64,000 nucleotides of DNA from an uncultured Alphaproteobacteria bacterium (GCA_943787445.1 CALSML010000025.1:1335-65334); one strand, 5' to 3'. Shown: positions 4,598-34,959, numbered from the stretch's first letter. Numbers and translations: made by a program. The notes: generated by a model not told the origin, from the sequence alone.

Positions 4598-5923
4598 ATG
4601 AGTTCGCAAGGGGGGCTTGTGGTCAAAATCCGAACGAGACCGCGGCAGGACGGTTCGCCTGAAAGCGTTTTGTGCGATTTGTTTGAGCAGGCGTTGCTAG
4701 CGTCGGATCCAATGTCGTGTGTACCGGTGCATCTGCCCGAATTGGCTGAGAACGGACGCGTTGTCGTTGTCGGTGCGGGCAAGGCGTCTGCGGCGATGGC
4801 GAAGGCGGTTGAAGACGAGGCCCGGGCGCGGGGGTGGCTCGATCGGGTCGAAGGCATTGTTGTCACCCGTTACGGACATGCTGTGGCGTGTGAGCGCATC
4901 GAAATCATCGAGGCGTCACATCCCGTTCCCGACGTTGCCGGTGAAATTGCGGCCCAGCGTGTCCTTGAACTGGCGCACGGCCTGAATTCACAGGACATGC
5001 TCCTCTGCCTGGTGTCGGGCGGTGGTTCGGCGCTGCTGGCATTGCCCGCGGACGGCGTCAGCGCGGCTGAGAAAGCCGCGGTCAATCGCGCGTTGCTGCG
5101 CAGCGGCGCGCCGATTGATGAGATGAACTGTGTGCGCAAGCATATTTCGGCAATAAAGGGCGGTCGGCTGGCCGCAGCGGCGGCACCGGCCCATGTCGTC
5201 AGTCTGATGATTTCCGATGTGCCCCGGGATGATCCGTCGGTCATCGCCTCGGGACCGACTGTCCCGGACCGGACAACCTCGGCGGACGCGCTGGCGGTGC
5301 TGGAACGCTACGGGATCGAGACGCCATCCAGCATTCGAGGATTGCTTGAGTCCGCGGCGGGGGAAACGCCCAAGCCCGGTGACGCCACCTTTGCGAATGT
5401 GGAGAACATCATCATCGCCAAGCCCGGCGATATGCTGACCGCGGTTGCGGATACGGCGGAATTGCGGGGTCTGCACGTGGTCTCCCTTGGTGCCGATCTG
5501 GAAGGGGAGGCCCGTGATCTCGGACGGGAACACGCGGCACTGGCACGGCGCCTGAAGCGCGAGCGTCAGGGCGATCGGCCGATTGTCGTTCTCTCCGGTG
5601 GGGAGACGACGGTGACGGTTCGTGGTGAGGGTCGCGGCGGGCGAAATGCCGAATACGCGCTTGGTCTGGCGGCCGGGCTGCTGGGACAGGTGGGAGTATA
5701 TGGTCTTGCCTGCGACACCGATGGCATTGACGGGGTGGAAGACAATGCCGGGGTTTTGGTGACGCCCGATACGCTGGAACGGGCGGTGGCGGCGAGGTTC
5801 GACGTGCAGGATGTCTTCGAGCGGAACGATGCCTACACGCTGTTTGCAGCACTCGATGATCTGGTGATGACCGGGCCGACGCGCACCAATGTGAATGACT
5901 TCCGGGCCATTCTGATTGTCTGA
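4598..5923 (+). CDS. Glycerate 2-kinase (GckA/TtuD, MOFRL family); start uncertain
   Basis: GAGKA, SGGGSAL, RKHISAIKGG, IASGPT, GGETTV, GGRN, DTDGIDG, TNVND. Confidence 0.92.
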   Translation: MSSQGGLVVKIRTRPRQDGSPESVLCDLFEQALLASDPMSCVPVHLPELAENGRVVVVGAGKASAAMAKAVEDEARARGWLDRVEGIVVTRYGHAVACERIEIIEASHPVPDVAGEIAAQRVLELAHGLNSQDMLLCLVSGGGSALLALPADGVSAAEKAAVNRALLRSGAPIDEMNCVRKHISAIKGGRLAAAAAPAHVVSLMISDVPRDDPSVIASGPTVPDRTTSADALAVLERYGIETPSSIRGLLESAAGETPKPGDATFANVENIIIAKPGDMLTAVADTAELRGLHVVSLGADLEGEARDLGREHAALARRLKRERQGDRPIVVLSGGETTVTVRGEGRGGRNAEYALGLAAGLLGQVGVYGLACDTDGIDGVEDNAGVLVTPDTLERAVAARFDVQDVFERNDAYTLFAALDDLVMTGPTRTNVNDFRAILIV

Positions 5924-5931
5924 ACCACCTT

Positions 5932-5996
5932 ATTTATCAGTTGAAAAGTAACGCTTGCCTGATCTTTGGGGTGCTGTTATTGATCGTTTGATAAAT
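5932..5996. promoter_or_regulatory. Pair of imperfect palindromes, candidate TetR operators
   Basis: ATTTATCAGTTGAAAAGT (5932-5949) and ATTGATCGTTTGATAAAT (5979-5996) both fit ATTTATCA-NN-TGATAAAT. Confidence 0.5.
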
Positions 5997-6032
5997 GGTG
6001 CGATTGAGCGCCATACGAATTCGGAGACGCCC

Positions 6033-7277
6033 ATGAGCCAGACAGCCTCCCAAGACTCAGCATCCAACGAGCCAGCATCCAACACAACGCCGACCGTGAC
6101 CCGGGAAGACATTCTCGCGCGCGCCGAAGCGCTTTTGCCCGTCGTGGCCGAACGCGCCGATACCGCGACCGAAGAGCGGCGTCTGCCCGAAGCCAATGTC
6201 CGCGATTTCCTGGATGCGGGTCTGTTCCAGATTCTCCAGCCCAAACGGGTCGGGGGCCTGGAGCTGGATTTCGGCATGCTGGTGGAGGTCGGCGCGGTGA
6301 TCTCCCGGGTCTGCGCGTCGAGCGGCTGGAACGTCTCCAACATCGCCAGCCACCACTGGATGCTGGGCATGTGGCCCGAAGAGGCCCAGAACGAAGTCTG
6401 GGGCAAGAACGGCGAGACGGCGGACACGCTGATCTGCGCGTCGGTGATCTTTCCCGCCGGCCGCGCCAAACGGGTGGATGGCGGCTATCTGCTCAGCGGC
6501 CGCTGGCCGTTCTGCTCGGGGATCGATCCCAGCGAGTGGAACATGCTCGGCGGCATGGTCGAAGCCGATGACGACCACCCCGAGAAAGAAGCGCGGATGT
6601 TCCTGCTGCGCAAATCCGAGCACGAGGTGATCGACACCTGGTTCACCTCGGGCCTGCAGGGCACGGGCTCGAAGGATTCCGCGGCGGAAGAGATTTTCAT
6701 CCCCGAACACATGACCGTGGCCGCCGACGATGTGAAGGGCGGGCCGACCCCGGGCAGCGCTGTCAATCCCGGCGCGCTTTATCAGGTGCCGGTGATCGCG
6801 CCGTTCCCCTATGTGCTGACGGGAATGCCCCTGGGGATCGCCGAAGGGGTCTATCACAACTATGTGGAGGGCATGAAGGCCCGGACCGCCAATTACACCG
6901 GCGCGCGCATTGCCGATCTGCAGAACATCCAGATCAAGGTGGCCGAAGCCGGCGCCGCCATCGATGCCGCGCGGCTGATGATGATGGCCGATTGCGATCT
7001 GTCCATGCAGATTGCCGGACGCGGCGAAGCACCGGACCTGGAAACCAAGGCCAAGTTCCGGCGCAACGGCGCCTATTCGGCCAATCTGTGTGTGGAGGCG
7101 GTCAACATTCTCTATCAGGCGAGCGGGGGCGGCGGCATCTACACCCGCAACCCGCTGGCACGTGCCTTCCGGGACATTCACGCCGCGCGGGCCCATATCG
7201 CCTTCAACATGGATGTGGCGGGTGCGACCTTCGGGCGGATCGCCCTGGGCCTCGGCTCCGACAACGCGGTTCTCTAG
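6033..7277 (+). CDS. Flavin-dependent monooxygenase, oxygenase component (HsaA/C2-HpaH-like, acyl-CoA dehydrogenase fold)
   Basis: AGLFQILQPKRVGG, LSGRWPFCSG, DTWFTSGLQGTGS, PLARAFRDIHA; ATG at 6033 follows GGAG. Confidence 0.88.
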   Translation: MSQTASQDSASNEPASNTTPTVTREDILARAEALLPVVAERADTATEERRLPEANVRDFLDAGLFQILQPKRVGGLELDFGMLVEVGAVISRVCASSGWNVSNIASHHWMLGMWPEEAQNEVWGKNGETADTLICASVIFPAGRAKRVDGGYLLSGRWPFCSGIDPSEWNMLGGMVEADDDHPEKEARMFLLRKSEHEVIDTWFTSGLQGTGSKDSAAEEIFIPEHMTVAADDVKGGPTPGSAVNPGALYQVPVIAPFPYVLTGMPLGIAEGVYHNYVEGMKARTANYTGARIADLQNIQIKVAEAGAAIDAARLMMMADCDLSMQIAGRGEAPDLETKAKFRRNGAYSANLCVEAVNILYQASGGGGIYTRNPLARAFRDIHAARAHIAFNMDVAGATFGRIALGLGSDNAVL

Positions 7278-7278: not shown

Positions 7279-7968
7279 TTGGCAAGGCCCGACCAGACGC
7301 CGCCGGACCCTAGTTTGCAGACGACCCGCGTGGCGCCGCGCCAGCGGCTGAGTCCCGAGGCCCGCGAACGACAGATCGTCGACGGCGCGATCGCGTTTTT
7401 TGCCGAGGTCGGCTTGGCGGGCCAGACCCGCGAGCTGGCCCAGCGACTGGGGGTGACCCAGCCGCTGATCTATCGCTATTTCCCGACCAAGCAGGACCTG
7501 ATCGACCGGGTTTATGAGGAGGTCTTTGTCGGCCGCTGGCGGGCCGAGTGGACCGACCTGATCGGTGAGCGCGCGCGGCCCCTGCGGGACCGGCTGATCG
7601 CGTTCTACCGGATCTATGCGCGGGACGTGCTGACCTATGACTGGATCCGCATCTACATGTTTGCGGGCCTGGCCGGCGAGGACATCAACCGGCGCTATAT
7701 CGCCCTGCTGGAAGACCAGCTGCTGGTGCCGATCGCGCGGGAGGTGCGCGCGGCGGCGGGCGCGCCGGCGCTTTCGGAAACGCCGGTGAGCGGGCTGGAA
7801 ATCGAAGCGGCCTGGCACATTCACGCCGCGGTTTTCTATTACTTCGTGCGCAAGCACATCTACCGCGCCAAGACCGAACCGGACCTGAACGCGTTCATCG
7901 AGGATGCCGTCGACCGCACCCTGGATGGCGCACTCGCCGTGACACGGCGGGGGGGTGTGGCGGGGTGA
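7279..7968 (+). CDS. TetR/AcrR family transcriptional regulator (start uncertain)
   Basis: RERQIVDGAIAFFAEVG..TRELAQRLGVTQPLIYRYFPTKQDL helix-turn-helix. Confidence 0.9.
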   Translation: MARPDQTPPDPSLQTTRVAPRQRLSPEARERQIVDGAIAFFAEVGLAGQTRELAQRLGVTQPLIYRYFPTKQDLIDRVYEEVFVGRWRAEWTDLIGERARPLRDRLIAFYRIYARDVLTYDWIRIYMFAGLAGEDINRRYIALLEDQLLVPIAREVRAAAGAPALSETPVSGLEIEAAWHIHAAVFYYFVRKHIYRAKTEPDLNAFIEDAVDRTLDGALAVTRRGGVAG

Positions 7969-8312: not shown

Positions 8313-9047
8313 CTATTGTGCGGCGGCGGCTTCCTTGCGGGCTTTGCGTTTGGCCCACCAGGTCTGAATGTCCAGCTTGAAATGCATGTAATAGACCTTG
8401 GGGAAGATGATCAGGATGTCGAACAGGGCGATCCAGCCGCCCTTCAGGGTCACCGGGATGGTGATGAAGGGGGAGGCGCCGAGAATGGCGACATGTTCGT
8501 CGGGGTTGATCGTATCTCGGTTTTCCAGCGCCCGTTCCACATTGTGGGCGAAGGACCAGTCGGCCCGATAGGTCACCTGACCCTCCGGGTTGATCACATA
8601 GACGGTGTTGGGGAGCAGGCCCCAGTCGTGATGCCATTTGCCGGCGACGTCATCGACGATGATCTTGCGCTCTTCGTTGTAATCGTCGCGGTTGCGCTTG
8701 GCGTATTCGATCTTCCCGTCGATGGTTTCGGCCTGTTTGGCCTTCTCGCCGGGATGGGCTTCGCGGACATAGACCACAAGCCATTCCACATCGGGATATT
8801 TTTCCTTCAGCTTGGCGAAGGGCTTCACGTTCTTGACGTACATGGGGCAGGTCAGGCTGCCGGATTCGATCACCAGCCATTTGCCCTTGTAGTCGCTGAG
8901 GGAGACTTCCTTGCCGTCCAGATCGGTGAGGGTGTAGTCGTAATTGACGGTCTCACCAGCCTTCGGACCCGGGAAATAGCCGAGTTCGTAGTTGCTCATC
9001 TTGAAACGCGGATAGGCGTAGCTGTCGTCACGTGCGGGAGCTGACAT
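8313..9047 (-). CDS. Iodothyronine deiodinase-like thioredoxin/peroxiredoxin-fold protein (Cys form)
   Basis: LTDLDGKEVSLSDY.GKWLV, GSLTCP, VYVREAHP, IIVDD, LPN.VYVI..EG; hydrophobic C-terminal segment. Confidence 0.75.
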   Translation of the reverse strand: MSAPARDDSYAYPRFKMSNYELGYFPGPKAGETVNYDYTLTDLDGKEVSLSDYKGKWLVIESGSLTCPMYVKNVKPFAKLKEKYPDVEWLVVYVREAHPGEKAKQAETIDGKIEYAKRNRDDYNEERKIIVDDVAGKWHHDWGLLPNTVYVINPEGQVTYRADWSFAHNVERALENRDTINPDEHVAILGASPFITIPVTLKGGWIALFDILIIFPKVYYMHFKLDIQTWWAKRKARKEAAAAQ

Positions 9048-9182: not shown

Positions 9183-9962
9183 CTAAACGGTCGTCCAGCC
9201 CCCGTCGATGGTCAGGCTGGCGCCGGTGATGAGTTCGGAGGCCGGGGAGGCGAGAAAGACGATCGAGCCGGTGACATCGGTGATCTTGCCAAGGCGGCCC
9301 ATCAGGATGCGATCCATCACGAATTGCTTGAACTCCGGATTCTCGAACATGGGCGCGGTCATCGGGGTTTCGATGAAGGTCGGCCCGATGCAGTTGCTGC
9401 GGATGTTCTGGGGTGCGAGTTCCGCAGCGATGGCCTTGCTCATGCCTTCGATGGCGTGCTTGCTGGCGCAATAGACCGTGCGATTCGGGGAGCCCACATG
9501 TCCCATCTGGGACGACATGTGGATCAGCGAGCCACCACGTCCGCCCGCCAGCATGCGCCGCGCGGCGGCCTGGGCGACGATGAACATGGACTTGATGTTG
9601 AGATCGAGCAGGAAGTCGAGATTTTCCTCCGACACGTCGACGAAGGGTTCGGGCCGGTTGGCGCCGGCGTTGTTCATCAGAATGTCGATCCGTTCCAGGC
9701 CCTCGATCTTTTCGGTGACCTGGGCAACATCGGTCACATCGCAGACGATGGGGGTGGCCTTGCCGCCAGCGGCGCGCACTTCCTCGACTACCGCTTCGAG
9801 TTCGGATTGGGTGCGGCTGACCAGCATGACTTCCGCGCCGGCTTCGGCCAGCGAAAGCGCGGCACCGCGGCCAAGGCCGCGTCCGGCACCGCTCACCACT
9901 GCCACAAGGCCGTCCAGACGAAGGGACGGGGTTTTCAGTTCTTCAGTCTCTGCCACGCTCAT
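9183..9962 (-). CDS. Short-chain dehydrogenase/reductase
   Basis: SGAGRGLG, NNAG, SSQMG, YCASK, IDGG. Confidence 0.93.
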   Translation of the reverse strand: MSVAETEELKTPSLRLDGLVAVVSGAGRGLGRGAALSLAEAGAEVMLVSRTQSELEAVVEEVRAAGGKATPIVCDVTDVAQVTEKIEGLERIDILMNNAGANRPEPFVDVSEENLDFLLDLNIKSMFIVAQAAARRMLAGGRGGSLIHMSSQMGHVGSPNRTVYCASKHAIEGMSKAIAAELAPQNIRSNCIGPTFIETPMTAPMFENPEFKQFVMDRILMGRLGKITDVTGSIVFLASPASELITGASLTIDGGWTTV

Positions 9963-10111
9963 GTCTCAGGCTTCCTCTTGGATAGGCTCATTTCTTGTGA
10001 ATGCATTCTTGCATTCCATTTTTCGAGCGACCATAACCGACGCCAAGTTCGGTTGTAAGACCGGCAATGACGTTTCAATTTTTACGATCAGAATAGTCGA
10101 GGGAACAATCC

Positions 10112-11140
10112 ATGGCGAAGAAAGCGACGGCAAAGAAAACTGCGGCGAAGAAGCCGGCTGCAAAGAAGCGGGCTTCATCGAAGAAAAAGCTGCTCACCAA
10201 GGCAGACGTGATGCGCAAATGCCGGCAGCTCAACAACTGGGGCCGCTGGGGCAAGAATGACGAGCTGGGTGTGCTCAACTACATCACCCCGGAGATGATT
10301 GCCGATGCCGCCAAGCTGGTGAAGAAGGGCAAGGTTTTCCGTCTGGGTCTGAACCTGGATGAGAACGGCCCGCAGAACGGTCTGTTCGGTGGTCGCTGGA
10401 ACCCGATGCATCAGATGCTGGCAACCGGCACCGATGCGGTGCAGGGCATTCAGGAGCCTCTGGCCGGCATGCGCTATGCGGATGATGCGATCAACCTGCC
10501 GACCCAGTGCGCGACCCAGTGGGACGCGCTGGCCCATGTCTTCACCGATGACAAGATGTGGAACGGCTATGACGCGACCCTGGTCGATGTGCGCGGCGCC
10601 CACAAGAATGGCATCGAGCACTTCGCCGACAAGATGGTCGGTCGTGGCGTGCTGCTCGACGTGGCCAAGATGAAGGGCAAGAAGCGCCTGGCCGATGGTG
10701 AGGAAATCACCATCGCGGATCTGGAAAAGACCGCCAAGAAGCAGGGCGTCGAAGTACGCCGTGGCGACTTCGTGATCTTCAACACCGGTCAGATGGCCGA
10801 TTGCCTCGACAAGGGTGATTGGGGTGGTTACGCCGGTGGCGATGCGCCGGGACTAGCCTTCGAAACCGTGGACTGGATTCACAAGAAGGAAATCTCGGGC
10901 ATCTGCTCGGACACCTGGGGCATCGAAGTGCGTCCGAACCGCGCCGTACCGGGCATCAACCAGCCCTGGCACTGGGTCACGATCCCGCATATCGGTATTG
11001 TGCATGGTGAAATCTGGTATCTGCGTGAGCTGGTTGAGGATTGCGCCGAGGATGGTGTGTATGAGTTCTTCCTCAGCGCACCGCCGCTGGTGATCACGCG
11101 CGGCACCGGTTCGCCGATCAATCCGCAAGCGATCAAATAG
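10112..11140 (+). CDS. Cyclase/kynurenine formamidase-family metal hydrolase with Lys/Ala-rich N-terminal tail
   Basis: NWGRWG.NDELG.LN, QCATQWDALAH, GRGVLLD, GEIW.L.EL, GSPINPQAIK. Confidence 0.88.
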   Translation: MAKKATAKKTAAKKPAAKKRASSKKKLLTKADVMRKCRQLNNWGRWGKNDELGVLNYITPEMIADAAKLVKKGKVFRLGLNLDENGPQNGLFGGRWNPMHQMLATGTDAVQGIQEPLAGMRYADDAINLPTQCATQWDALAHVFTDDKMWNGYDATLVDVRGAHKNGIEHFADKMVGRGVLLDVAKMKGKKRLADGEEITIADLEKTAKKQGVEVRRGDFVIFNTGQMADCLDKGDWGGYAGGDAPGLAFETVDWIHKKEISGICSDTWGIEVRPNRAVPGINQPWHWVTIPHIGIVHGEIWYLRELVEDCAEDGVYEFFLSAPPLVITRGTGSPINPQAIK

Positions 11141-11163
11141 CACGCAAAAATTTATGTGCTTTG

Positions 11164-11200
11164 GGGGCCACGTTCCGATGGAGCGTGGCCCCTTTGTTTT
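11164..11200 (+). terminator. Intrinsic terminator after first cyclase gene
   Basis: GGGGCCACGTTCC-GAT-GGAGCGTGGCCCC-TTTGTTTT. Confidence 0.75.
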
Positions 11201-11272
11201 GCTAGACTTTGATTATAAGAAAAATCAGCCCGGGTTGCGGGCCATGCCAATTCACACCGGGGGAGACCTGAC

Positions 11273-12256
11273 ATGCATCGTTATGACGATCCGAAATTCC
11301 AGATGGACATGGACACCATCAAGGAAAAATCCGAGCGCAACAAAAACTGGGGCAAATGGGGCCCCGACGATGAGTGGGGCACGATCAACTATGTGGGTGA
11401 CGAGGAGCGCAAGGCCGCGGCCCAGCTGGTGAAGCGGGGCGAGGTGTTCGCACTCGGTCTCAATTTTGACAGTGACGGTCCGCAGAACGGCCTGTTCGGT
11501 GGTCGCTGGAACCCGATTCACACCATGCTCGCGACGGGCACAGATGCTGTTGCCGGAAAGCAGACGGTTCCGGGTAAGAAATACGCCAGCCAGTACGCCG
11601 ATGATGCTGTCTCGCTGCCGCTGCAGTGCGGCACCCAGTGGGATGCGCTGGGCCATGTCTTCAACAACGACAAGATGTGGAATGGCTATGACGCGACCCT
11701 GGTTGGCGCGAATGGTGCGGAGAAGAACGCGATCCACAAGATGCGCAACAAGATGGTCGGTCGCGGCGTGCTGCTCGACATCGCGCGCTGGGCCGGGGTC
11801 GATTCCCTAGATGACGGCACCGCGATCGATGCCGAAGACCTGAACGCCTGTGCCAAGGCGCAGGGCGTGGAGATCAAGCGCGGCGATTTCGTTATCTACC
11901 GGACCGGACACATGGAACGTTGCCTGGCCGCGGGTGAGTGGGGTGGATATGCCGGCGGTGAAGCGCCGGGCGTGTCGTTCCACACCTGTGACTGGATGCA
12001 CGACATGGAAATAGCCGCGATTTGCGCCGACACCTGGGGCTGCGAGGTCATTCCGAACGAGACCGATGATGTGTTCCAGCCCTGGCACTGGATCGTGATT
12101 CCGCAGATTGGCATCACCATGGGCGAGATTTTCTATCTCAAGGATCTGGCCAATGACTGTGCGGAAGACGGCGTCTACGAGTTCATGTTCGTGGCACCGC
12201 CGCTGCCGATCACGCGAGGCGTTGGTTCGCCGATCAATCCGCAGGCGATCAAGTAG
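11273..12256 (+). CDS. Cyclase-family metal hydrolase, paralogue of the preceding gene
   Basis: NWGKWGPDDEWG, QCGTQWDALGH, GRGVLLD, GSPINPQAIK. Confidence 0.88.
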   Translation: MHRYDDPKFQMDMDTIKEKSERNKNWGKWGPDDEWGTINYVGDEERKAAAQLVKRGEVFALGLNFDSDGPQNGLFGGRWNPIHTMLATGTDAVAGKQTVPGKKYASQYADDAVSLPLQCGTQWDALGHVFNNDKMWNGYDATLVGANGAEKNAIHKMRNKMVGRGVLLDIARWAGVDSLDDGTAIDAEDLNACAKAQGVEIKRGDFVIYRTGHMERCLAAGEWGGYAGGEAPGVSFHTCDWMHDMEIAAICADTWGCEVIPNETDDVFQPWHWIVIPQIGITMGEIFYLKDLANDCAEDGVYEFMFVAPPLPITRGVGSPINPQAIK

Positions 12257-12360
12257 CTCCTGCGACAATTATGTAACGGATGCGGGCGGTTCCGGGGTTG
12301 CCGGGGCCGCCCGGCCTGTTTTAAGACACTGCGAAATTCAGCCAACCGAGGAAGAGTGAA

Positions 12361-13674
12361 ATGGCCATCAAAATCCTGAAAGAGGGTATGGATTCCGAAG
12401 CGACGGATGAAGCCGACGCCAAGGTTCGAGACATCGTTGAAGGCATCCTCGGTGATGTAAAGTCCCGCGGCGACGCTGCTGCCCGGGAACTCTCGGAGAA
12501 GTTCGACAAATGGTCGCCCGAAAGCTTCCGTCTGTCGGATGCGGATATCAAGGCGCTGATGGACACGCTGTCCGAGCAGACCATCGAGGATATCAAGTTT
12601 GCCCAGACCCAGGTCCGCAACTTCGCGCAGATCCAGAAGGATTCCATGAAGGATGTGGAGGTCGAGACGCTTCCCGGTGTGACCCTGGGCCACAAGAACA
12701 TTCCGGTGAACAGCGTTGGCTGTTACGTGCCCGGTGGTCGTTATCCGATGGTGGCCTCGGCCCATATGTCCATCGTGACCGCCAAGGTGGCCGGTGTGCC
12801 GCGGGTGATCGCCTGCACCCCGCCGAATGAAGGCGGGCCCCATGCCGCGACCATTGCGGCGATGCATCTGGCCGGTGCGGATGAAATCTACTGCATGGGT
12901 GGTGTGCAGGCTGTGGCCGCCATGGCCCTGGGGACGGAAACCATTGATCCCTGCACGATGATCGTTGGCCCGGGCAATGCCTATGTGGCCGAAGCCAAGC
13001 GTCAGCTGTATGGCAAGGTGGGGATCGATCTCTTCGCTGGTCCGACCGAGGTTCTGGTGGTTGCCGATCACACGGCGGACGTGGAAATGGTTGTGGTCGA
13101 TCTGCTGGGGCAGGCCGAGCATGGCCCGAATTCACCAGCGGCGGTCATCACCAATTCACGCGAACTGGCCGAAGCCATTCCGGCCGAAATCGAGCGCCAG
13201 CTGAAGATTCTGCCGACTGCCGATATCGCCTCGGTGGCGTGGCAGGATTACGGCCAGATCATCCTGTGTGACACCCGCGAGGAAATGCGCGATGAAGCTG
13301 ACCGCATTGCCTATGAGCATGTGGAAATCCTGACCGAGGACCCACGCTGGTATCTGGACAACATGACCAATTTCGGCGCGTTGTTCATTGGTCCGGAAAC
13401 CAATGTTGCCTATGGCGACAAGGTGATCGGCACCAACCACACGCTCCCCACCAAGGGGGCGGCGCGCTACACGGGCGGTCTGTGGGTCGGCAAGTTCATG
13501 AAGACCTGCACCTATCAGCAGATCACCGAAGAGGCGAGCGCGCTCGTGGGTGATTATTGTTCGCGTTTGTGCGAGGTCGAGCGCTTTTGGGGACACAAGG
13601 AGCAGGCTGATCTTCGCTTGCGTCGCTATGCAGGTCGCAATATCGGTATAGGTTCGACAGACGCTGCCAAATAG
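12361..13674 (+). CDS. Histidinol dehydrogenase-family protein, non-canonical (HpsN-related, probably catabolic)
   Basis: [48 protein letters not shown]; no his genes nearby. Confidence 0.85.
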
Positions 13675-13693
13675 ATTTTCTCGTTACGGAACT

Positions 13694-13724
13694 AAAAAAG
13701 GGCGGCCTAAGGGCCGCCCTTTTC
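13694..13724. terminator. Bidirectional intrinsic terminator
   Basis: AAAAAAGGGCGGCC-TAAG-GGCCGCCCTTTT. Confidence 0.85.
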
Positions 13725-13743
13725 ATAATCACGGTAGCTAAGG

Positions 13744-14829
13744 CTACTTGATGACGTAGTCATGAACGGGCTTGGCGCCGTTCTCTTTTGCCAGAGCATG
13801 GAGACGCTTGAAGGTGGCTTTGCCCGGGAAACCGAGCTTCTCGTATTCAGCAGCCTTCTGGTTGACCCAAGGCTCAATAGCCTGGGCCATCTTGTTGCGC
13901 TCTGCAGAGCCGAGATCGCGAACCGTCACACCTTGCTTCTTGAGGTTCTCGAGAGCTGAGGTGAACTTACGCACGCCTTCGTCTTCAACTGCCTCGTTGT
14001 AGACATGGGTCTCTTCCATGATAATCTTCTTCACGGAATCCGGCAGCTTAGCCCAGGTCTTGTTGTTTACTGTCATTGGATAAGCAACAACCGAACCCCA
14101 GCCCATGGTGGTGTAATATTTGGCCACTTCACCAAACTTGAAGCCGAAATACGGCGCCGGAAAAATCACGACACCCGAATACACACCCGACTGCAGGGCG
14201 TTGTAAACCTCGTTCAAGTTGGTCTGAACCTTCGAAGCGCCGGCATAGTCAAGCCAAGGCAGGTTCGGACCGGCCGCACCGATCTTCACACCCTTGAGCT
14301 CTTCCATCTTGGTCCACGGGAACTTCGTGCCTAGGCCGTAATCGTCGAATGCACCATTGGCGATATAGGTTTGACCGTATTGATCAAAGATCTTGGAGAA
14401 GTAGTCGAACTCCTTGTGGATCTGACGCGTGGTCGGCCCCATGATCTTCGGATCGCCCGAGATGAACGGATTGAAGTAGTTCAGGTTGTGGACGAACAGC
14501 TTAGTCGGCTCGAAGCAGGAGCACATCAGACCGATATCAACGAGACCTTTCTGGGTAGATTCGAGAGTTTCAAATAGGTTCGACATAGTGCCGCCGTAAC
14601 CTTCGATAAAACGAATCGTATGATCAGTTTCGGCTGCCACGCGTTTTGTGACATTCGGTACGAAGGTCTTGTTGGCCTGATTCACACTTGCTAGCGGTGC
14701 CGAAGGATGGCCGGCAGCGATACGAATGTTGAAGTTGTCGGCGCTAGCCGAAGTTTGGGCCATGACCAAACCTGCGGTCAGGACGCCAGCCGTTAAGACG
14801 GACTTTGTAGTCATTGAGTTGAGCTTCAC
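13744..14829 (-). CDS. TRAP transporter substrate-binding protein (DctP family), copy B
   Basis: Signal peptide, IAAGHP, EVYNALQSG, VNNKTWAKLP. Confidence 0.88.
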   Translation of the reverse strand: MKLNSMTTKSVLTAGVLTAGLVMAQTSASADNFNIRIAAGHPSAPLASVNQANKTFVPNVTKRVAAETDHTIRFIEGYGGTMSNLFETLESTQKGLVDIGLMCSCFEPTKLFVHNLNYFNPFISGDPKIMGPTTRQIHKEFDYFSKIFDQYGQTYIANGAFDDYGLGTKFPWTKMEELKGVKIGAAGPNLPWLDYAGASKVQTNLNEVYNALQSGVYSGVVIFPAPYFGFKFGEVAKYYTTMGWGSVVAYPMTVNNKTWAKLPDSVKKIIMEETHVYNEAVEDEGVRKFTSALENLKKQGVTVRDLGSAERNKMAQAIEPWVNQKAAEYEKLGFPGKATFKRLHALAKENGAKPVHDYVIK

Positions 14830-14984
14830 CAGGTTTCTCCCTTGGCAATTCTGTTATGGCCTGTTGGCCTGATTGGTTTTTGGGAACGCACTCGATAAGC
14901 ACTGATGACAGTGTGAAGGGGATCGACGGCGGTGTGAAGCATTTTTCGCGGCGGATCGCGGGGATGTGTGCGGGGCACAGGCAT

Positions 14985-15014
14985 AAAAAAGGGCGACCCG
15001 AGGGCCGCCCTTTT
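14985..15014 (-). terminator. Intrinsic terminator between the two SBP copies
   Basis: AAAAAAGGGCGACCCGAGGGCCGCCCTTTT, near-identical to the terminator at 13694. Confidence 0.8.
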
Positions 15015-15034
15015 CCAAATCAGTGTAGCGGAGG

Positions 15035-16117
15035 CTACTTGATCGAGTAGTTGTGAACGGGCTTGGCGCCGTTCTCTTTGGCCAGCTCGATCAGACGATT
15101 GAAGGTGGCCTTGCCCGGGAAGCCCTGTGCTTCGTACTCGGCAGCCTTCTCGTTGACCCAGGGCTCAATGGCGAGGGCCATCTTGCCACGCTCTTCAGAG
15201 CCGAGATCGCGAACCGTCACACCCTGCTTCTTGAGGTTCTCAAGAGCCGAGGTGTATTTACGGACGCCTTCGTCCTCAACAGCGGTCTGGTAAACGTCCA
15301 TTTCTTCCGTGATGATCTTCTTCACGGAATCAGGAAGCTTGGCCCAGGTCTTGTTGTTCACGGTCACCGGATAGGCGAGGACCGAACCCCAACCCATTGT
15401 GGTGTAGTACTTGGCCACTTCACCGAACTTGAAGCCGAAATACGGAGCCGGGAAAATCACGACACCGGAGAACACGCCGGACTGCAGGGCGTTGTAGACT
15501 TCGTTCAGGTTGGTCTGGACCTTCGAGGCACCAGCATAGTCAAGCCAGGGAAGGTTCGGACCGGCAGCACCGATCTTCACGCCCTTGAGCTCTTCCATCT
15601 TGGTCCACGGGAACTTCGTGCCCAGGCCGTAATCATCGAATGCACCGCCGCCGATATAGGTCTGGCTGTACTGATCGAAGATCTTGGAGAAGTAATCGAA
15701 CTCCTCATGAATCTGACGCGTGGTCGGACCCATGATCTTCGGATCGCCCGAGATGAACGGGGTGAAGTAGTTCAGGTTATGGACGAACAGCTTGGTCGGC
15801 TCGAAGCAGGAGCACATGGCACCAATGTCGACCAGGCCCTTCTGGGTGGATTCGAGAACCTCGAACAGGTTGGCGATCGTGCCGCCGTAACCTTCAATGA
15901 ACCGAACGGTGTGGTCGGTTTCGGCCGCCACGCGTTTGGTGACATTCGGAACGAAGGTCTTGTTGAGCTGATTGACAGTCGCAAGCGGAGCGGCCGGATG
16001 ACCAGCAGCGATACGAATGTTGAAGTTATCAGCAAGAGCCGAGGTGGTGGTCGCAGTTGCTGCAACAGCCATCAAGCCGGCCGCGGCAAAACTCGCGAGG
16101 TGTGTACGTGCTTTCAC
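15035..16117 (-). CDS. TRAP transporter substrate-binding protein (DctP family), copy A
   Basis: Mature region nearly identical to 13744..14829. Confidence 0.88.
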   Translation of the reverse strand: MKARTHLASFAAAGLMAVAATATTTSALADNFNIRIAAGHPAAPLATVNQLNKTFVPNVTKRVAAETDHTVRFIEGYGGTIANLFEVLESTQKGLVDIGAMCSCFEPTKLFVHNLNYFTPFISGDPKIMGPTTRQIHEEFDYFSKIFDQYSQTYIGGGAFDDYGLGTKFPWTKMEELKGVKIGAAGPNLPWLDYAGASKVQTNLNEVYNALQSGVFSGVVIFPAPYFGFKFGEVAKYYTTMGWGSVLAYPVTVNNKTWAKLPDSVKKIITEEMDVYQTAVEDEGVRKYTSALENLKKQGVTVRDLGSEERGKMALAIEPWVNEKAAEYEAQGFPGKATFNRLIELAKENGAKPVHNYSIK

Positions 16118-16548
16118 AGAAAATCTCCCTTGAACAAAAGTCTGTTTTTACGAATCAACAAAACGTTGCTGCTCGACTGAGCGGTACTCCATTTATGATT
16201 CGGGCGCAGAGAAGCAGGATTTACGCGTAAAAGCTAGAGACCAACCCGTATTTGTTCATGTTTTTGGCTCCGACTCGCATCTTTCGCCCAAACAACCGTT
16301 TTTTGTCTCCCGTTTGTGGTTGTTCCGCTTCGGTAAGGAACAGCCTGTGCGGGAAATATGGCGAGATCATCACGCGGCTTTGATCGAAAGAAGGCAATCG
16401 GAAGACAAAAAAGGGCAAAACTTCACGATCGTGGATTTTACATAGGCGTGCAGTCTGCTAACTTCGCCCACGGATTCGCACGGGAGGGTGCGATTCCAGA
16501 TTTTTGCATCGGCGTTGAGACCATCGCAGATGCTACAGGGAGGACGAT

Positions 16549-17085
16549 ATGGTCGATCGGGTCGTTTATACTGTCACGCGCGTTTGCAGCACGATCGCTG
16601 CATTCTGGGCTTTGGCACTGGCATTTTTGATTCTCTATGACATTACGGGTCGAACATTCTTCAATCACCCCTTTGATGGGACCATTGAGATCGTGGCCAA
16701 TTCGATGGTGTCGATTCTGTTTCTACAGATGCCATACACGATCTATCGCGGCGCGCATCTGCGTACGACCGTGATCTATCAGAACCTGGGCTCACTTGCC
16801 CGGCGCCTGACTGATATTCTAGTTGCGGTGCTCGGCGTCTGGTTCTTCCTCTCGATTGCCTATGGCGGTTACGAGGACATGATCATTGGCTGGAACGTCG
16901 ATGAACGTGAGGGCGAAGGTTCCATCCGCGTTCCTGTCTATCCGGTCCGAACCCTGATCTTCATTTTCGCGCTGGTGTCGGCCTTCGTGTACGGCGTGTT
17001 GCTGGTGCATTTCCTTACAGGTGGTCAGGCGATCACCGAAGAAGAAGAAGGCAAGCACGAAGCCGTTTCGGGCTCGCAGATTTAA
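16549..17085 (+). CDS. TRAP transporter small permease (DctQ)
   Basis: Four hydrophobic segments, DITGR..FNHP..GTIE, H-L-R motif. Confidence 0.85.
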   Translation: MVDRVVYTVTRVCSTIAAFWALALAFLILYDITGRTFFNHPFDGTIEIVANSMVSILFLQMPYTIYRGAHLRTTVIYQNLGSLARRLTDILVAVLGVWFFLSIAYGGYEDMIIGWNVDEREGEGSIRVPVYPVRTLIFIFALVSAFVYGVLLVHFLTGGQAITEEEEGKHEAVSGSQI

Positions 17086-17155
17086 CTTATAGAAACCACA
17101 ACCCGCTGGCCGCCTGATCTGGGCGCCGGATAAACGGGACAAGGGGGCGTTTAAA

Positions 17156-18529
17156 ATGGATCCAACCTCAGCCGTACTTTTGATGCTGGTCGTGCTGATT
17201 TTTGCCGTTGTTGGCGGAATTCACATTGGTCTTTCTCTCGGTGTCAGTGCCCTGATCGGCACCTGGCTCATGTTTGGCACGTTCGGCAGTCTGGACGAGG
17301 CCTGGCAGGGCTACACACTGGCTTCCGGCCAGGTGGGCAGCACGTCGTTCTTCGCATTGCGCGATTTTGTGTTCGCCGTCATTCCACTCTTCGTGTTGAT
17401 GGGTGAGTTTGTCAGTCGATCCGGATCTGCGGGTGACCTATATCGTGTGATGAACTTCGGCCTGAAGCGCATCCCGGGCCGCCTCGCCGTTGCGACGGTG
17501 GCCGGCAATGCGGTCTTCGCCGCTGTGACCGGCACGAGCCTCGCCTCCGCCGCCGCGTTCTCGCGTCTGGCCTATCCGGAGATGATGAAGGCCGGCTACA
17601 ACCGCAAATTCGCACTGGGTTCGGTTGCAGGCAGCGCCTGTCTCGGCATGCTGATCCCGCCCAGCGTGCTCCTGATCATCTGGGGCATTGTGACGGAAAT
17701 TTCGATCGGCTTCCTGTTTTTGGCTGGTATCTTCCCGGGCCTGCTGCTCGCGCTGCTGATGGCGTTTTATTGCTCGGGCTTTGCCATGTTCAAGCCGCAT
17801 ATGGCGCCGGCTGTCGATCTTTCCGATGAAACCCTGACCCGTCAGGAAATGATCAGTGGCGGTGGTGTCATCTTCCTGATTGTGGCCGTTCTGGGCAGCA
17901 TCTGGGTTGGCCTGGCCACCCCGTCCGAAGCTGCCGCTCTGGGCGCGCTGTTCGGTCTGGTGCTTGCCCTGATCAAGGGCGTGCGCTGGGAAGGCATCCG
18001 CGAATCCATTATCGACTCCGGTAAGGTGATCGCGCCGATCCTGTTCCTGCTGCTGACGGCGCAAATGTACTCGCGTCTGCTGACCACCGGTGGTGTCGTC
18101 AACCTGATCACCGAATCGGTGGGCGGTGCGGGGATCGACCCGAATATCGCCGTGGTCATGATGATCGTGATCTGGCTGGTTCTGGGAACGCTGCTCGATT
18201 CCGGTTCGATCATTCTGCTGACCGTGCCGATCTTCTGGCCCATCGCGCAGAACTTCGGATACAACGAATACGCCTTTGCGATCATCGGCATTCTGGCGAT
18301 TGAGGCTGGTCTGCTGACCCCGCCTGTCGGACTGCTGGTCTACGCTGTGAAGGGGTCTGTCCCCGACAGAACGGTCCAATTGGGCGAGATTTTTGCGGGC
18401 TCGATACCATACTGGCTGTTGATCCTCGTGGTCATGGTGATCGTCTGGCTGGTGCCCGATCTGGCCACCATTCCGATCACCTGGAGTTCGGATATCCAGT
18501 TTAATCACCAAATCGGAATCTTCCGATGA
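17156..18529 (+). CDS. TRAP transporter large permease (DctM)
   Basis: IPLFVLMG, FAAVTGTS, LGMLIPPS, TPSEAAA, GLLTPPVG. Confidence 0.93.
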   Translation: MDPTSAVLLMLVVLIFAVVGGIHIGLSLGVSALIGTWLMFGTFGSLDEAWQGYTLASGQVGSTSFFALRDFVFAVIPLFVLMGEFVSRSGSAGDLYRVMNFGLKRIPGRLAVATVAGNAVFAAVTGTSLASAAAFSRLAYPEMMKAGYNRKFALGSVAGSACLGMLIPPSVLLIIWGIVTEISIGFLFLAGIFPGLLLALLMAFYCSGFAMFKPHMAPAVDLSDETLTRQEMISGGGVIFLIVAVLGSIWVGLATPSEAAALGALFGLVLALIKGVRWEGIRESIIDSGKVIAPILFLLLTAQMYSRLLTTGGVVNLITESVGGAGIDPNIAVVMMIVIWLVLGTLLDSGSIILLTVPIFWPIAQNFGYNEYAFAIIGILAIEAGLLTPPVGLLVYAVKGSVPDRTVQLGEIFAGSIPYWLLILVVMVIVWLVPDLATIPITWSSDIQFNHQIGIFR

Positions 18530-18634
18530 ACTGAACACCCGTTCGGGTTAGAATTGCGGCGGCATCTTCGAATGGAGATGCCGCCGTTTTCGTTTGTGCG
18601 AGACGTGTGAACCGGAAAGTTTGAAGGAAAAGCC

Positions 18635-19174
18635 ATGAGCGATATCGAGATAATGTCCCGCGACGAGATGATGAAGCGGGTGGCGTATTGGAAAGACCAG
18701 AAACCCAACCCGAACATGTTCGTGGATACGCGCATTCCCGAATACGAACGCGAACTGTATTCGATCATCGGCTCGGGAGTGTCGGAAGATGCAGACAATC
18801 CGGTGGCGATCACCGATGTGGAGGGGTTTCACATCGCCTATATCGGCGCCGAGCCGGGCAAGGGGGCGCCCTTTCACTCGCACCCGACCGTGGAGGTGTT
18901 CATCCCGCTCACGGGGACCTGGTCGGTCTACTGGAATGAAGGCGAAGACCGGGAAGAGGTCATCCTGGGACCAATGGACTGCATTTCGGTACCGCCGAAG
19001 GTGATGCGGGGCTTTCGCAACGAAGGAGACGCCCATGCGCTGATGATTGGAATTGTGGGCGGGGACGAAGCCACCAAGGTCGACTGGCCCGAGGACATTC
19101 TCGAACAGGCGCGCGCCACGGGACTGTCCTTGGATGCTGATGGCAATATCGTCGAGATTGCTGCAGCCGAATAG
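18635..19174 (+). CDS. Cupin domain protein
   Basis: PGKGAPFHSHPTVEVF, LGPMDCISVPPKVMRGFRN. Confidence 0.85.
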   Translation: MSDIEIMSRDEMMKRVAYWKDQKPNPNMFVDTRIPEYERELYSIIGSGVSEDADNPVAITDVEGFHIAYIGAEPGKGAPFHSHPTVEVFIPLTGTWSVYWNEGEDREEVILGPMDCISVPPKVMRGFRNEGDAHALMIGIVGGDEATKVDWPEDILEQARATGLSLDADGNIVEIAAAE

Positions 19175-19744: not shown

Positions 19745-20599
19745 CTAGGAGGCGAGTTCCGCGAGCGCGCGCTTGGTCAGCACACGTGCGAGATGCATTT
19801 TCATTTCGGCCGGGCCGTTCAAATCGGGCATTGGATCGAGATCGGCATCCAGAGAATCCTGGGCCTTCTTGATCGTGTCCTCAGAGTTGGCCTGACCATT
19901 CAGAGCGGCGGCGGCGCTTTTCGCCAGAATGGGCTGGTCACCGGCGCCGAAGAAGCCCAGACGCATATCGGCGAAGGTGTCACCTTCGATCCGGCCCTGA
20001 ACGGCAATCCCGACCATGGCGTAGTCACCATGGCGCCGGGCCAATTCCATGAAGGCCGTGCGCTCGCCATCCTGGATGACGGGAATTTCTGCACCGACGA
20101 GCAATTCGTTCTCTTTCAGGTCGGTTTCGAACAGGCCCTGGAAAAAGTCATCCGCTACGACCGTGCGCTGGCCGTCGCGTCCCTGGAGGACGAAGCGGGC
20201 ACCGAGTGTGCGGGTGACGGCGGGCAATTCGGCTGCCGGATCGGCAAAGGCCACCGAGCCGCCAAAGGTGCCGCGATTGCGGATCGCCTGATGGGCCACA
20301 TGGGGCATGGTCTTGGCAATCAGCGGGGCATAGGTCTGCACATCGGTAGATTCGAGAACCTGAGAATGCCGGGCGAGGGCGCCGATCTTCAGGGTTTCAC
20401 CGTCGCAGGAAATTTCCGACAGGCCTTTGAGGTGGTTGATGTCGATCAGGACTTCCGGAGCAGAGAGGCGCATGTTCAATGTCGCCATCAGGCTCTGGCC
20501 GCCGGCGAGGATCCGGGCGTCATCACCATGCTCGTCGAGCAGGTCGAACACCTGATCCAGCGTTTCCGCGCGGACATATGCAAATGGTGCGGGTTTCAC
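19745..20599 (-). CDS. Molybdenum hydroxylase FAD-binding medium subunit (CoxM/CutM-like)
   Basis: MKPAPFAY, LAGGQSL, IRNRGTFGGS..ADPAAE, RRHGDYA. Confidence 0.93.
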   Translation of the reverse strand: MKPAPFAYVRAETLDQVFDLLDEHGDDARILAGGQSLMATLNMRLSAPEVLIDINHLKGLSEISCDGETLKIGALARHSQVLESTDVQTYAPLIAKTMPHVAHQAIRNRGTFGGSVAFADPAAELPAVTRTLGARFVLQGRDGQRTVVADDFFQGLFETDLKENELLVGAEIPVIQDGERTAFMELARRHGDYAMVGIAVQGRIEGDTFADMRLGFFGAGDQPILAKSAAAALNGQANSEDTIKKAQDSLDADLDPMPDLNGPAEMKMHLARVLTKRALAELAS

Positions 20600-25743: not shown

Positions 25744-25768
25744 GCCTGAATTAAGGAAAAGGTTCGAC

Positions 25769-26314
25769 ATGACGGATCTGACCCAAGGGGCGTCACCAGC
25801 CGGTGGCGCCCCTCAGGATTTGCTGGATCGTACTCTGACCGTGATGAACACGATCGGGTCGCTCTGGATTTTTGTTCTGATGGTGATGATTGATACGGAT
25901 GCGTTCAGTCGCACGCTGTTCAATCATCCTATTCACGGCGTCAACGAACTCGTGGAGATGTCGATCATTGCGATCGTCTTCATGCAGCTCGGCGATGCGA
26001 CCCGGAAGGGACGTCTAACGCGGTCAGACGGCTTCTATGGCCTCGTTCAGCGTCGTCGCCCGCGTGCCGGTCATGTCATGGGCGCGATCTTTGATTTTCT
26101 GGGCGTGGTGTTCATGGCGATCGTTCTCTATGGGATTGTCCCGGAGCTCTATCTCGCCTGGCGCGACAATTACTTCGTCGGGGAAGAGGGCCTTTTCACA
26201 GTGCCTGAGTGGCCCATCAAATTTATTCTGGTGCTGGGCTGCGCTGTGACAATGCTGCAGTTTTTGAAATTCGCGATCCGGCATGTGGTGCCGGTTGCGC
26301 GCGGCGTGCGCTAG
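25769..26314 (+). CDS. TRAP transporter small permease (DctQ)
   Basis: DAFSR.LFNHPI.GVNELVE, four TM segments. Confidence 0.85.
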   Translation: MTDLTQGASPAGGAPQDLLDRTLTVMNTIGSLWIFVLMVMIDTDAFSRTLFNHPIHGVNELVEMSIIAIVFMQLGDATRKGRLTRSDGFYGLVQRRRPRAGHVMGAIFDFLGVVFMAIVLYGIVPELYLAWRDNYFVGEEGLFTVPEWPIKFILVLGCAVTMLQFLKFAIRHVVPVARGVR

Positions 26315-26335
26315 CGGGCGCCGGAAAGGTTTACC

Positions 26336-27673: not shown

Positions 27674-27742
27674 TTTATCGGCATCTGGTTTTCCGGTGGG
27701 TGTTTCCGCATAATCGCGGCCAACAAAACTCCGAGGGAAGAG

Positions 27743-28627: not shown

Positions 28628-28651
28628 TCCGGCTGCGTGGGATCGGTTTTC

Positions 28652-34953: not shown

Positions 34954-34959
34954 GGGTGC

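What the first reader, a model, noticed from the sequence alone, without database searches (positions are those of the whole stretch)
9183..19174. Candidate undescribed uptake-and-catabolism pathway: SDR + twin cyclases + HisD-like dehydrogenase + twin Arg-less TRAP receptors + cupin
Seen: about 10 kb of intact, adjacent genes, each an atypical family member. They are two cyclase-family hydrolases with a Gln-substituted metal motif, a HisD homologue outside any his operon, a divergent SDR, two near-identical DctP receptors lacking the carboxylate-binding Arg, dctQM and a cupin. Known: the DHPS pathway (hpsKLM-NOP) also pairs a HisD-like enzyme with an SDR and TRAP but has no cyclases. Inference: a small, possibly non-carboxylate amide or N-heterocycle is imported, hydrolytically opened and oxidised from alcohol to acid. 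I recognise no named pathway with this gene set.
Basis: partly seen in the sequence, partly recalled or inferred. Interest (0 to 1): 0.72.

Follow-up and report, generated by a model that had tools for sequence, protein, structure and literature searches.

The report
Conserved ring-opening pathway, substrate unknown
These intact genes form a gene set shared by many marine and soil bacteria that likely imports and breaks open a still unidentified small ring-shaped molecule, and matching genes are switched on in pea-root Rhizobium, which gives a laboratory strain in which to look for the substrate.

Summary
The ten genes are real and intact, but lie in four blocks of alternating direction. The cyclases' Gln motif is not new (MGS0169 / trans-dienelactone hydrolase type, 2017). 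The HisD-like enzyme is neither HisD nor HpsN (GRYPM motif; catalytic, zinc and anion-binding residues kept). Both receptors have Gly where DctP has Arg. Cyclase + HisD-like + SDR recur together outside the family in 28 of 48 loci. The cupin is dispensable; the transporter type varies. New here: the Rhizobium pRL8 counterparts (pRL80036/37/41, 51-66% identical) are up 10.4-, 3.5- and 4.1-fold in the pea rhizosphere (published arrays). Best reading (0.5): a molybdenum hydroxylase makes a lactone or lactam, the cyclases open it, and SDR plus HisD-like enzyme make a 2-hydroxy acid. The substrate is not identified. Seven literature searches found no description of this pathway. This scan noted the same module twice before on other DNA (e1-723678, e1-938103).

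The parts
9183..9962 (-). SDR (NNAG, YxxxK); core partner of the HisD-like enzyme
   Evidence: Pfam adh_short_C2; nearest structures include L-xylulose reductase and KduD; a homologue of 42% or more lies beside the HisD-like gene in 27 of 31 unbiased loci
10112..11140 (+). cyc1, Gln-motif cyclase-family hydrolase; groups with the single cyclase of soil loci and pRL80036
   Evidence: PF04199; MGS0169 active-site residues F,R,Q,Q,D,H,H,E all kept; FastTree clade support 0.92
11273..12256 (+). cyc2, Gln-motif cyclase-family hydrolase, an old paralogue kept across the family
   Evidence: only PDB sequence match is 5IBZ, E 1.5e-62; separate clade
12361..13674 (+). HisD-family Zn/NAD+ alcohol-to-acid dehydrogenase, sister group of HpsN (GRYPM; Q251, H254, E319, H320, D353, K354, H360, H412)
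   Evidence: best PDB match HpsN 8V35, E 7.6e-122; residues against PMC11382572
13744..14829 (-). DctP receptor 1, Gly184 at the Arg site
15035..16117 (-). DctP receptor 2, Gly183 at the Arg site; copy number is 1-3 among relatives
16549..17085 (+). DctQ
   Evidence: PF04290
17156..18529 (+). DctM
   Evidence: PF06808
18635..19174 (+). Cupin, accessory
   Evidence: PF07883; 9 of 15 family loci, 0 of 48 distant loci; nine paralogues in the genome
19253..19729 (-).
   Evidence: 14 of 15 family loci; homologue of 55% or more in 18 of 48 distant loci
19745..20599 (-). CoxM-type FAD subunit; no adjacent large subunit, two candidate large subunits at G000:C17:198259-203525
7279..7968 (+). TetR regulator (start uncertain, 7279-7330), likely regulator of the module
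   Evidence: homologue in 24 of 48 distant cyclase loci; 44% to pRL80035
5955..7277 (+). HsaA-type flavin monooxygenase oxygenase subunit, probable upstream accessory
   Evidence: NCBIfam NF045629 below cut-off; 6 of 48 distant and 7 of 32 near loci
4598..5923 (+). MOFRL glycerate kinase, family-level neighbour, link unproven
   Evidence: 16 of 32 near loci, 0 of 48 distant loci

Best explanation
This conserved gene set likely imports a small, probably uncharged ring compound through the Arg-less TRAP system, likely oxidises it next to a ring O or N with a molybdenum hydroxylase (CoxSM here, CoxL on another contig), and would then open the resulting lactone or lactam with the Gln-motif hydrolases and finish it to a 2-hydroxy acid with the SDR and the HisD-like enzyme. 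Shown here: the genes, their residues and their linkage across genomes. Shown in print for the Rhizobium counterparts: co-induction in the pea rhizosphere. Inferred: every chemical step. By analogy with HpsN, the HisD-like enzyme would take a 1,2-diol or 2-amino alcohol with an anion two carbons away (HOCH2-CH(OH)-CH2-X-) and oxidise CH2OH to COOH with two NAD+. The simplest carboxylate case is 3,4-dihydroxybutanoate to malate; 4,5-dihydroxypentanoate to 2-hydroxyglutarate also fits. The SDR would either reduce the hydroxymethyl ketone left by ring opening or oxidise the primary alcohol to the aldehyde; both roles are in print for HpsO. Cyclase + SDR + HisD-like look like a shared lower pathway fed by different hydroxylases and transporters in different bacteria.
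For: Linkage: 21 of 23 family genomes fetched have cyclase beside HisD-like. In 48 distant loci: HisD-like 30, SDR 31, both 28, CoxM 19, a CoxL of one subfamily 18, TetR 24. Two members of that CoxL subfamily (65% and 58%) are at C17. In the family, CoxL and cyclase are both found in 24 of 36 genomes and neither in 8; neither is found in 24 other families. The subfamily's nearest structure is quinoline 2-oxidoreductase, with YRGVG. Distant loci add a 2,6-dihydroxypyridine-hydroxylase-like monooxygenase (7 of 80 loci; E 2e-53 to 2VOU), luciferase-like monooxygenases (9 of 80) and, in basal family members, a DHPONH/FrsA-like hydrolase. The hydrolase residues of MGS0169 are nearly invariant in 118 sequences; that motif is shared with trans-dienelactone hydrolase (PMC5341072). 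The HisD-like enzyme keeps the HpsN zinc, catalytic and Lys353 positions. The same Arg-less receptor subfamily sits beside the cyclase in Aquabacter (L109), L091, L052 and L065. pRL80036, 37 and 41 are up 10.4x, 3.5x and 4.1x with coxM 6.5x in the 21-day pea rhizosphere (PMC3333776 supplement). A compact hisD-like/tetR/cyclase/SDR/coxMSLG block lies on an Ancylobacter plasmid.
Against: No enzyme was assayed and no substrate is identified. CoxL is unlinked in this genome, so its pairing with the window's CoxSM is inferred. The pRL8 and Ancylobacter CoxL are not orthologous (29% and 32%), and the published pea competition defects concern coxG, coxM and pRL80026, not the three core genes. 15 of 48 distant cyclase loci have neither HisD-like nor SDR, and 29 of 48 lack CoxM (16 are short contigs). 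The HisD-like clade mostly lives without this cyclase or CoxMS (0 of 31 unbiased loci), with near-identical active-site residues, so the cyclase link is one context among several. Sugar-acid clues point elsewhere (rival 1). The distant loci are the best 80 of 421 hits and are rich in Xanthobacteraceae kin, so they are not independent.
Confidence: 0.5

Rival explanations
1. The substrate is a sugar-derived lactol, lactone or deoxy-keto acid rather than a heteroaromatic ring. The Mo enzyme oxidises an aldehyde or lactol, the cyclases are sugar-acid lactonases, and SDR + HisD-like turn, for example, 2-keto-3-deoxypentonate into 4-hydroxy-2-oxoglutarate for aldol cleavage.
For: The best NCBIfam hits of CoxS and CoxM are glyceraldehyde dehydrogenase subunits, below cut-off. 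The SDR is near xylulose reductase and KduD. An L-2-keto-3-deoxyarabonate dehydratase homologue (E 3e-105), an SMP-30 lactonase and a BKACE lie 13-16 kb downstream. In 31 unbiased HisD-like loci an RraA or HpcH aldolase occurs in 17 and an amidohydrolase-2 in 9. Plasmid loci add arabinonate dehydratase and AHL-type lactonases. gcl lies beside 5 distant cyclase loci.
Against: RraA and HpcH aldolases are in 0 of 80 cyclase loci. pRL80036/37/41 are absent from the 3-fold lists for arabinose, galactose and arabinogalactan (single arrays). Ring-attacking flavin monooxygenases and a QorL-like CoxL recur.
Confidence: 0.25
2. The 10-kb block is a mosaic. Cyclase, SDR and HisD-like form one unit, while the TRAP system and cupin serve another compound and are only neighbours in this family.
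For: There are four transcription directions and internal hairpins. The receptor subfamily is in only 2 of 48 distant loci and the cupin in 0. Insertions of unrelated genes separate hisD-like from dctP in L037-L039 and L041. The genome has several other Arg-less receptors and cupins.
Against: The same receptor subfamily lies directly beside the cyclase in an unrelated order (Aquabacter, L109) and in three loci with other gene orders. The order hisD-like, dctP, dctQM, coxSM is kept across nine genera of the family.
Confidence: 0.12
3. A variant sulfonate (DHPS or cysteinolate) pathway.
For: HpsN is the nearest solved structure, about 50% identical; Lys353 is kept; the SDR + TRAP pairing resembles hpsKLM-NO.
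Against: His126, the defining sulfonate-binding residue, is Met. HpsK anchors sulfonate with two Arg (PMC13335735), and these receptors lack the conserved Arg. No HpsP-type zinc dehydrogenase is among the 20 ORFs scanned. Cyclases and CoxMSL have no place in the hps pathway.
Confidence: 0.05
4. Lower pathway for cyclic ethers such as 1,4-dioxane: lactone, then 2-hydroxyethoxyacetate, then diglycolate.
For: The block is on a plasmid of Ancylobacter polymorphus ZM13, named as a dioxane degrader. A cyclase gene and its neighbours appear in the dioxane DEG lists of Xanthobacter YN2. The geometry would fit the zinc site (inference).
Against: The YN2 gene was matched by annotation only, not by sequence. 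Its transporter neighbour is at 2-5 FPKM and no HisD-like gene is listed there. The module is common in marine genomes and on a pea-induced plasmid. The search 'dioxane' + 'histidinol dehydrogenase' returned 0 papers.
Confidence: 0.05
5. The cyclase is a kynurenine formamidase and the SDR oxidises formate (the suggestion in PMC3333776 for pRL80036/37).
For: PF04199 contains KynB; the paper proposes it.
Against: The HxxxHxDxxxH motif is replaced by QxxxQxDxxxH. KynB structures are not among the sequence matches. No kynureninase or tryptophan dioxygenase family was among the recurring neighbours scanned.
Confidence: 0.03

Closest known systems
HpsN / hpsKLM-NOP DHPS pathway (PDB 8V35, 8WWE; PMC11382572, PMC11131964)
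   Same: HisD-family Zn/NAD+ dehydrogenase with the same zinc ligands, catalytic Glu-His and Asp-Lys pair, next to an SDR and a TRAP system
   Different: His126 is Met (GRYPM, not GRY[AS]H); receptors lack Arg; no HpsP nearby; cyclases and Mo hydroxylase added
MGS0169 (PDB 5IBZ) and trans-dienelactone hydrolase of Pseudomonas reinekei MT1 (the latter known to me only through PMC5341072)
   Same: QxxxQxDxxxH motif and F84/R87/H286/E299 equivalents; metal-dependent ester or lactone hydrolysis is the tested chemistry
   Different: Two or three old paralogues in tandem, inside a dehydrogenase-hydroxylase cluster; natural substrate unknown
Pea-rhizosphere-induced region of Rhizobium johnstonii 3841 pRL8 (pRL80021-41; PMC3333776)
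   Same: TetR 44%, cyclase 62%, SDR 51%, hisD2 66%, with a CoxMSL and a transporter nearby
   Different: Non-orthologous CoxL, ABC instead of TRAP, one cyclase; function never established, and the cyclase was annotated as a kynurenine formamidase
Quinoline 2-oxidoreductase (1T3Q) and the nicotine pyridine pathway (Kdh 7DQX, DHPONH 2JBW, DHPH 2VOU)
   Same: Mo hydroxylase type with YRGVG; DHPH-like and DHPONH-like genes recur in related loci
   Different: Only family-level similarity (DHPONH E 1e-15); I recall no HisD-like step in those pathways
LacI/SnoaL/MetE-like operon that carries the same HisD-like + SDR pair (uncharacterised; earlier scan notes)
   Same: Near-identical HisD-like active-site residues; orthologous SDR; distant cupin and MetE-like homologues
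   Different: Has an aldolase, SnoaL proteins and ABC uptake; no Gln-motif cyclase or CoxMS in 31 of 31 loci

Membership tests
Histidinol dehydrogenase (HisD) | G-S-A-P-L motif (PMC11382572) | tested here: not met
   G-R-Y-P-M at 126-130
Histidinol dehydrogenase (HisD) | The cell's histidine-pathway copy | tested here: not met
   A separate higher-scoring copy follows a hisG-like ORF on C27 and is intact in 4 of 4 congeners
HpsN (DHPS 3-dehydrogenase) | G-R-Y-A/S-H motif with His126 | tested here: not met
   Met130; Met or Leu in all 67 loci-derived sequences aligned
HpsN (DHPS 3-dehydrogenase) | Zn ligands Q248/H251/D352/H411, catalytic E318/H319, K353, H359 | tested here: met
   Q251, H254, D353, H412, E319, H320, K354, H360 invariant in 14 sequences
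hps DHPS pathway | hpsO and hpsP beside hpsN; a sulfolyase in the genome | tested here: inconclusive
   SDR present, no HpsP-type gene among 20 ORFs scanned; no PF04295 (SuyB family) match in an 89% complete genome; Xsc and CuyA not searched
Gln-motif cyclase-like esterase/lactonase (MGS0169 type) | QxxxQxDxxxH plus F84, R87, H286, E299 | tested here: met
   All eight kept in cyc1, cyc2 and pRL80036
Gln-motif cyclase-like esterase/lactonase (MGS0169 type) | Metal-dependent ester or lactone hydrolysis | not testable with these tools
   needs an assay
Kynurenine formamidase / isatin hydrolase | HxxxHxDxxxH motif | tested here: not met
   First position Gln in 118 of 118, second Gln in 107 of 118
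DctP (TRAP SBP family 7) | PF03480 and DctP fold with DctQM partners | tested here: met
   model pLDDT 95.5; best match 4N6D Z 35.1, rmsd 2.3, 311 aligned, 20% identity
Carboxylate- or sulfonate-binding DctP (incl. HpsK) | Conserved Arg in the binding strand | tested here: not met
   Gly in 32 of 35 rows, Ala, Leu or Ser in the rest, never Arg
Quinoline-2-oxidoreductase-type Mo hydroxylase | Three subunits with a YRGVG active-site loop and a heterocycle substrate | tested here: inconclusive
   Motif shown for the L132 CoxL; not displayed for the C17 copies; subunit pairing and substrate untested

The most novel reading that the evidence does not exclude
Cyclase + SDR + HpsN-sister dehydrogenase are an undescribed shared lower pathway, with a third chemistry for the HisD family. 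It funnels several O- or N-heterocycles from interchangeable Mo hydroxylases and flavin monooxygenases into central metabolism. The pRL8 copy would explain part of pea-specific rhizosphere adaptation, and the Arg-less receptors of this marine alphaproteobacterial family would mark an unrecognised dissolved organic compound in seawater.
Probability: 0.35. Interest if true: 0.72.

Novelty: new variant of a known kind. Interest (0 to 1): 0.5.

Why it matters
The HisD-like clade is in about 7.5% of sampled Pseudomonadota (30 of 400) and is labelled 'histidinol dehydrogenase' in public records, so identifying its substrate would correct many annotations and add a pathway. The link found here to the pea-induced pRL8 genes, left unexplained in the 2011 paper, turns an orphan metagenomic cluster into a question that can be tested with mutants and root extracts in a harmless, genetically tractable strain. 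The marine receptors offer a route to the ligand by co-purification.

Tried and rejected
1) The Gln motif as a novelty: rejected, published in 2017. 2) HisD-like as a back-up for a broken hisD: the canonical gene has a frameshift in this assembly but is intact in 4 of 4 congeners. 3) Folding the HisD-like protein: the active-site loops had pLDDT under 50, so the model was not used. 4) Receptor fold comparison: all matches were 21% identical or less and many were tied, so no ligand can be read from it. 5) Cupin: 220 homologues carried only generic names, and PDB matches were weak. The Atlas look-up of the receptor gave no result. 6) Metatranscriptomes: contigs from three RNA libraries of three studies (X2, X3, X4) cover both receptors, dctQM and parts of the cyclases, some without mismatch; X1 covers all 30 bins evenly and may be DNA. 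Contigs cannot rank genes, and the uncovered coxSM and SDR bins are not evidence. 7) An aldolase as the last step: it holds for other HisD-like loci (17 of 31) but not here (0 of 80). 8) Dioxane: weak, see rivals. 9) The promoter scan found 1 site against 4.9 expected; uninformative. 10) No complex prediction was run. 11) An INSeq paper on strain 3841 was not held, so fitness data for pRL80036/37/41 remain unseen. The DOC supplements of PMC3333776 could not be read and may bear on which conditions induce these genes.


Full report
Observation. They form four blocks: SDR (-); cyc1, cyc2, HisD-like (+); two dctP (-); dctQ, dctM, cupin (+). Terminator-like hairpins follow cyc1, cyc2 and dctM. The window lies on contig C25 of an 89% complete, 2.6-Mb genome. 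Its close relatives carry titles such as 'MAG: Alphaproteobacteria bacterium', and RNA runs holding the stretch are mostly marine.

Cyclases. The only PDB sequence match is 5IBZ. PMC5341072 (passages seen) describes it as MGS0169, a Mn2+-stimulated esterase with weak isatin amidohydrolase activity. Its Gln-x-x-x-Gln-x-Asp-x-x-x-His motif is shared with a trans-dienelactone hydrolase. All eight active-site positions are kept in cyc1 and cyc2, and are nearly invariant in 118 sequences. The motif is therefore a known subfamily, and ester or lactone hydrolysis is its tested chemistry. cyc1 and cyc2 are old paralogues: each forms a family-wide clade, cyc1 groups with the single cyclase of soil loci (support 0.92), and some relatives have a third copy.

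HisD-like enzyme. The best PDB match is HpsN. PMC11382572 (parts 2-4 of 5 read) defines G-S-A-P-L for HisD and G-R-Y-A/S-H for HpsN. This protein has G-R-Y-P-M, but keeps the zinc ligands, the catalytic Glu-His and the anion-binding Lys. The genome has a separate canonical hisD. It is thus a third group, expected to oxidise a 1,2-diol or 2-amino alcohol that bears an anion (inference). PMC12814064 (passages) shows that an HpsN also takes an amino alcohol. For the SDR partner, two roles of HpsO are in print: racemisation at C2 (PMC13335735, passages) and oxidation of the primary hydroxyl (PMC11131964, passages).

Receptors. Gly replaces the DctP Arg. No row of 35 related receptors has Arg, so this is a subfamily trait that includes a third receptor at 24646-25743. 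Copy number is 1-3, and duplications recur in separate lineages. A confident model matches DctP structures at 21% identity or less and names no ligand.

Conservation in the family. 25 of 36 family genomes have the HisD-like gene. I fetched about 20 kb for 23 of them (two were contig-end or partial hits); 21 have the cyclase beside it. Of 15 loci that show dctPQM, 14 continue into coxS-coxM and 9 have the cupin. None of the near loci has the matching large subunit. Two candidates, 65% and 58% identical to the CoxL of a Bradyrhizobium locus, lie on C17. That CoxL and the cyclase are both found in 24 of 36 family genomes, neither in 8, and neither in 24 other families (kin are not independent).

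Conservation beyond the family. A scan of genome contigs with cyc2 found 421 relatives and kept the best 80. In the 48 under 80% identity (Afipia, Bradyrhizobium, Xanthobacter, Microvirga, Aquabacter and others) the counts are: HisD-like 30, SDR 31, both 28, CoxM 19, orthologous CoxL 18, TetR 24, this receptor type 2, cupin 0. Uptake there is mostly by branched-chain-type ABC, NMT1-type ABC or TTT systems. Recurring extras among the 80 loci are a 2,6-dihydroxypyridine-hydroxylase-like monooxygenase (7), luciferase-like monooxygenases (9), BKACE (9 at 55% or more) and gcl (5). The CoxL's nearest structure is quinoline 2-oxidoreductase. As background, the cyclase subfamily is in 3 of 397 class genomes outside the family. 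Against a fixed unit: in an even sample, 30 of 400 Pseudomonadota have the HisD-like gene, and of their 31 loci 27 have the SDR, 17 an aldolase, and none this cyclase or CoxMS. HisD-like + SDR is the widest core, and the cyclase/Cox form is a minority context. Plasmid loci show further contexts: ring-cleavage dioxygenases with FAH hydrolases, sugar-acid enzymes and other lactonases (19 of the plasmid hits were opened).

An experimental handle. Plasmid pRL8 of Rhizobium johnstonii 3841 carries TetR, cyclase, SDR and hisD2 at 44, 62, 51 and 66% identity, near a CoxMSL and an ABC importer. Gene numbers were matched by order and by the paper's descriptions. In PMC3333776 (passages, rows of supplementary files 1, 3 and 4, and the sheet list and part 1 of file 2), pRL80036 is up 4- to 11-fold in all seven pea-rhizosphere comparisons in which it is listed, including pea against alfalfa and sugar beet. 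In the 21-day set pRL80036, 37 and 41 are up 10.4, 3.5 and 4.1 times with coxM 6.5 times. [quoted passage not shown] Mutants of coxG, coxM and pRL80026 compete less well (RCI 0.44, 0.73, 0.69); I saw no mutant of the three core genes. The pRL8 CoxL is only 27-29% identical to the marine ones, so the upstream substrates may differ. PMC7105596 (passages) shows the hisD2 protein in bacteroids. A compact copy of the module is on a plasmid of a dioxane-degrading Ancylobacter (one passage of bioRxiv 2025.03.20.644286), but the Xanthobacter YN2 dioxane data give only weak support (PMC8508750, passages and supplement rows).

Mechanism. The order hydroxylate, open, reduce or oxidise, finish as a 2-hydroxy acid uses every core enzyme once and suits a neutral ring ligand for an Arg-less receptor. 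All chemical steps are inferred. I give it 0.5; a sugar-lactone version 0.25; a mosaic 0.12; sulfonate, cyclic-ether and tryptophan readings 0.05 or less each. No single named substrate exceeds about 0.15.

Novelty. Seven searches of the held library found no description of this gene set or of an activity for this HisD sister group; subscription journals are mostly not covered. Every part belongs to a known family, and the scan has noted the module on two other genomes. Verdict: a real, undescribed catabolic variant with unknown substrate; interest 0.5.

Noticed in passing
window 31894-35925: SMP-30 lactonase, BKACE and an L-2-keto-3-deoxyarabonate dehydratase homologue (E 3e-105 to 7C0C). The BKACE type also flanks the cyclase in 9 related loci, and the dehydratase in 2. 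Possibly a downstream arm.
   Followed up: partly
window 24646-28627: A second Arg-less TRAP system with a deacetylase-like gene and a GntR regulator, conserved next to the cluster in several family members.
   Followed up: partly
window 8313-9047: Deiodinase-like redoxin conserved beside the SDR across most of the family; absent from distant loci.
   Followed up: no
G000:C6:25504-26709; L049:9602-10813: A DHPONH/FrsA-like hydrolase that sits inside the cluster in basal family members is on another contig here (76% identical). These members also have a 120-aa gene without a Pfam match between cyc2 and the HisD-like gene.
   Followed up: partly
G000:C27:31287-32502: The canonical hisD is split by a frameshift in this assembly but intact in four congeners; probably an assembly error. 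Other ORFs look broken too (window 28637-29266 and 61870-63700).
   Followed up: partly
window 18635-19174 and 22428-23573: The cupin and the MetE-like gene have 25-36% and 42-49% homologues in the LacI/SnoaL operons that carry the same HisD-like + SDR pair. Paralogues in this genome are equally close, so the link is unresolved.
   Followed up: partly
L037, L038, L039, L041: An acetoin-dehydrogenase-like E1/E2 set, a LysR gene and, in three of the four, a muconolactone-isomerase-like gene are inserted between the HisD-like gene and dctP.
   Followed up: no
L148, L154, L160, L161: In Emticicia, Hymenobacter, Massilia and Agrobacterium plasmids the HisD-like gene sits with VOC proteins and FAH hydrolases, in three also FAD monooxygenases and in two glycosidases, suggesting a plant-phenolic context.
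   Followed up: no
L183-L205 (LacI/SnoaL operons): If those operons act on a gadusol-type ring, as earlier notes guess, HisD-like oxidation of 4-hydroxy-4-hydroxymethyl-2-oxoadipate would give the substrate of the RraA-type aldolase. Untested idea from recalled chemistry; it leaves the SDR unexplained.
   Followed up: no
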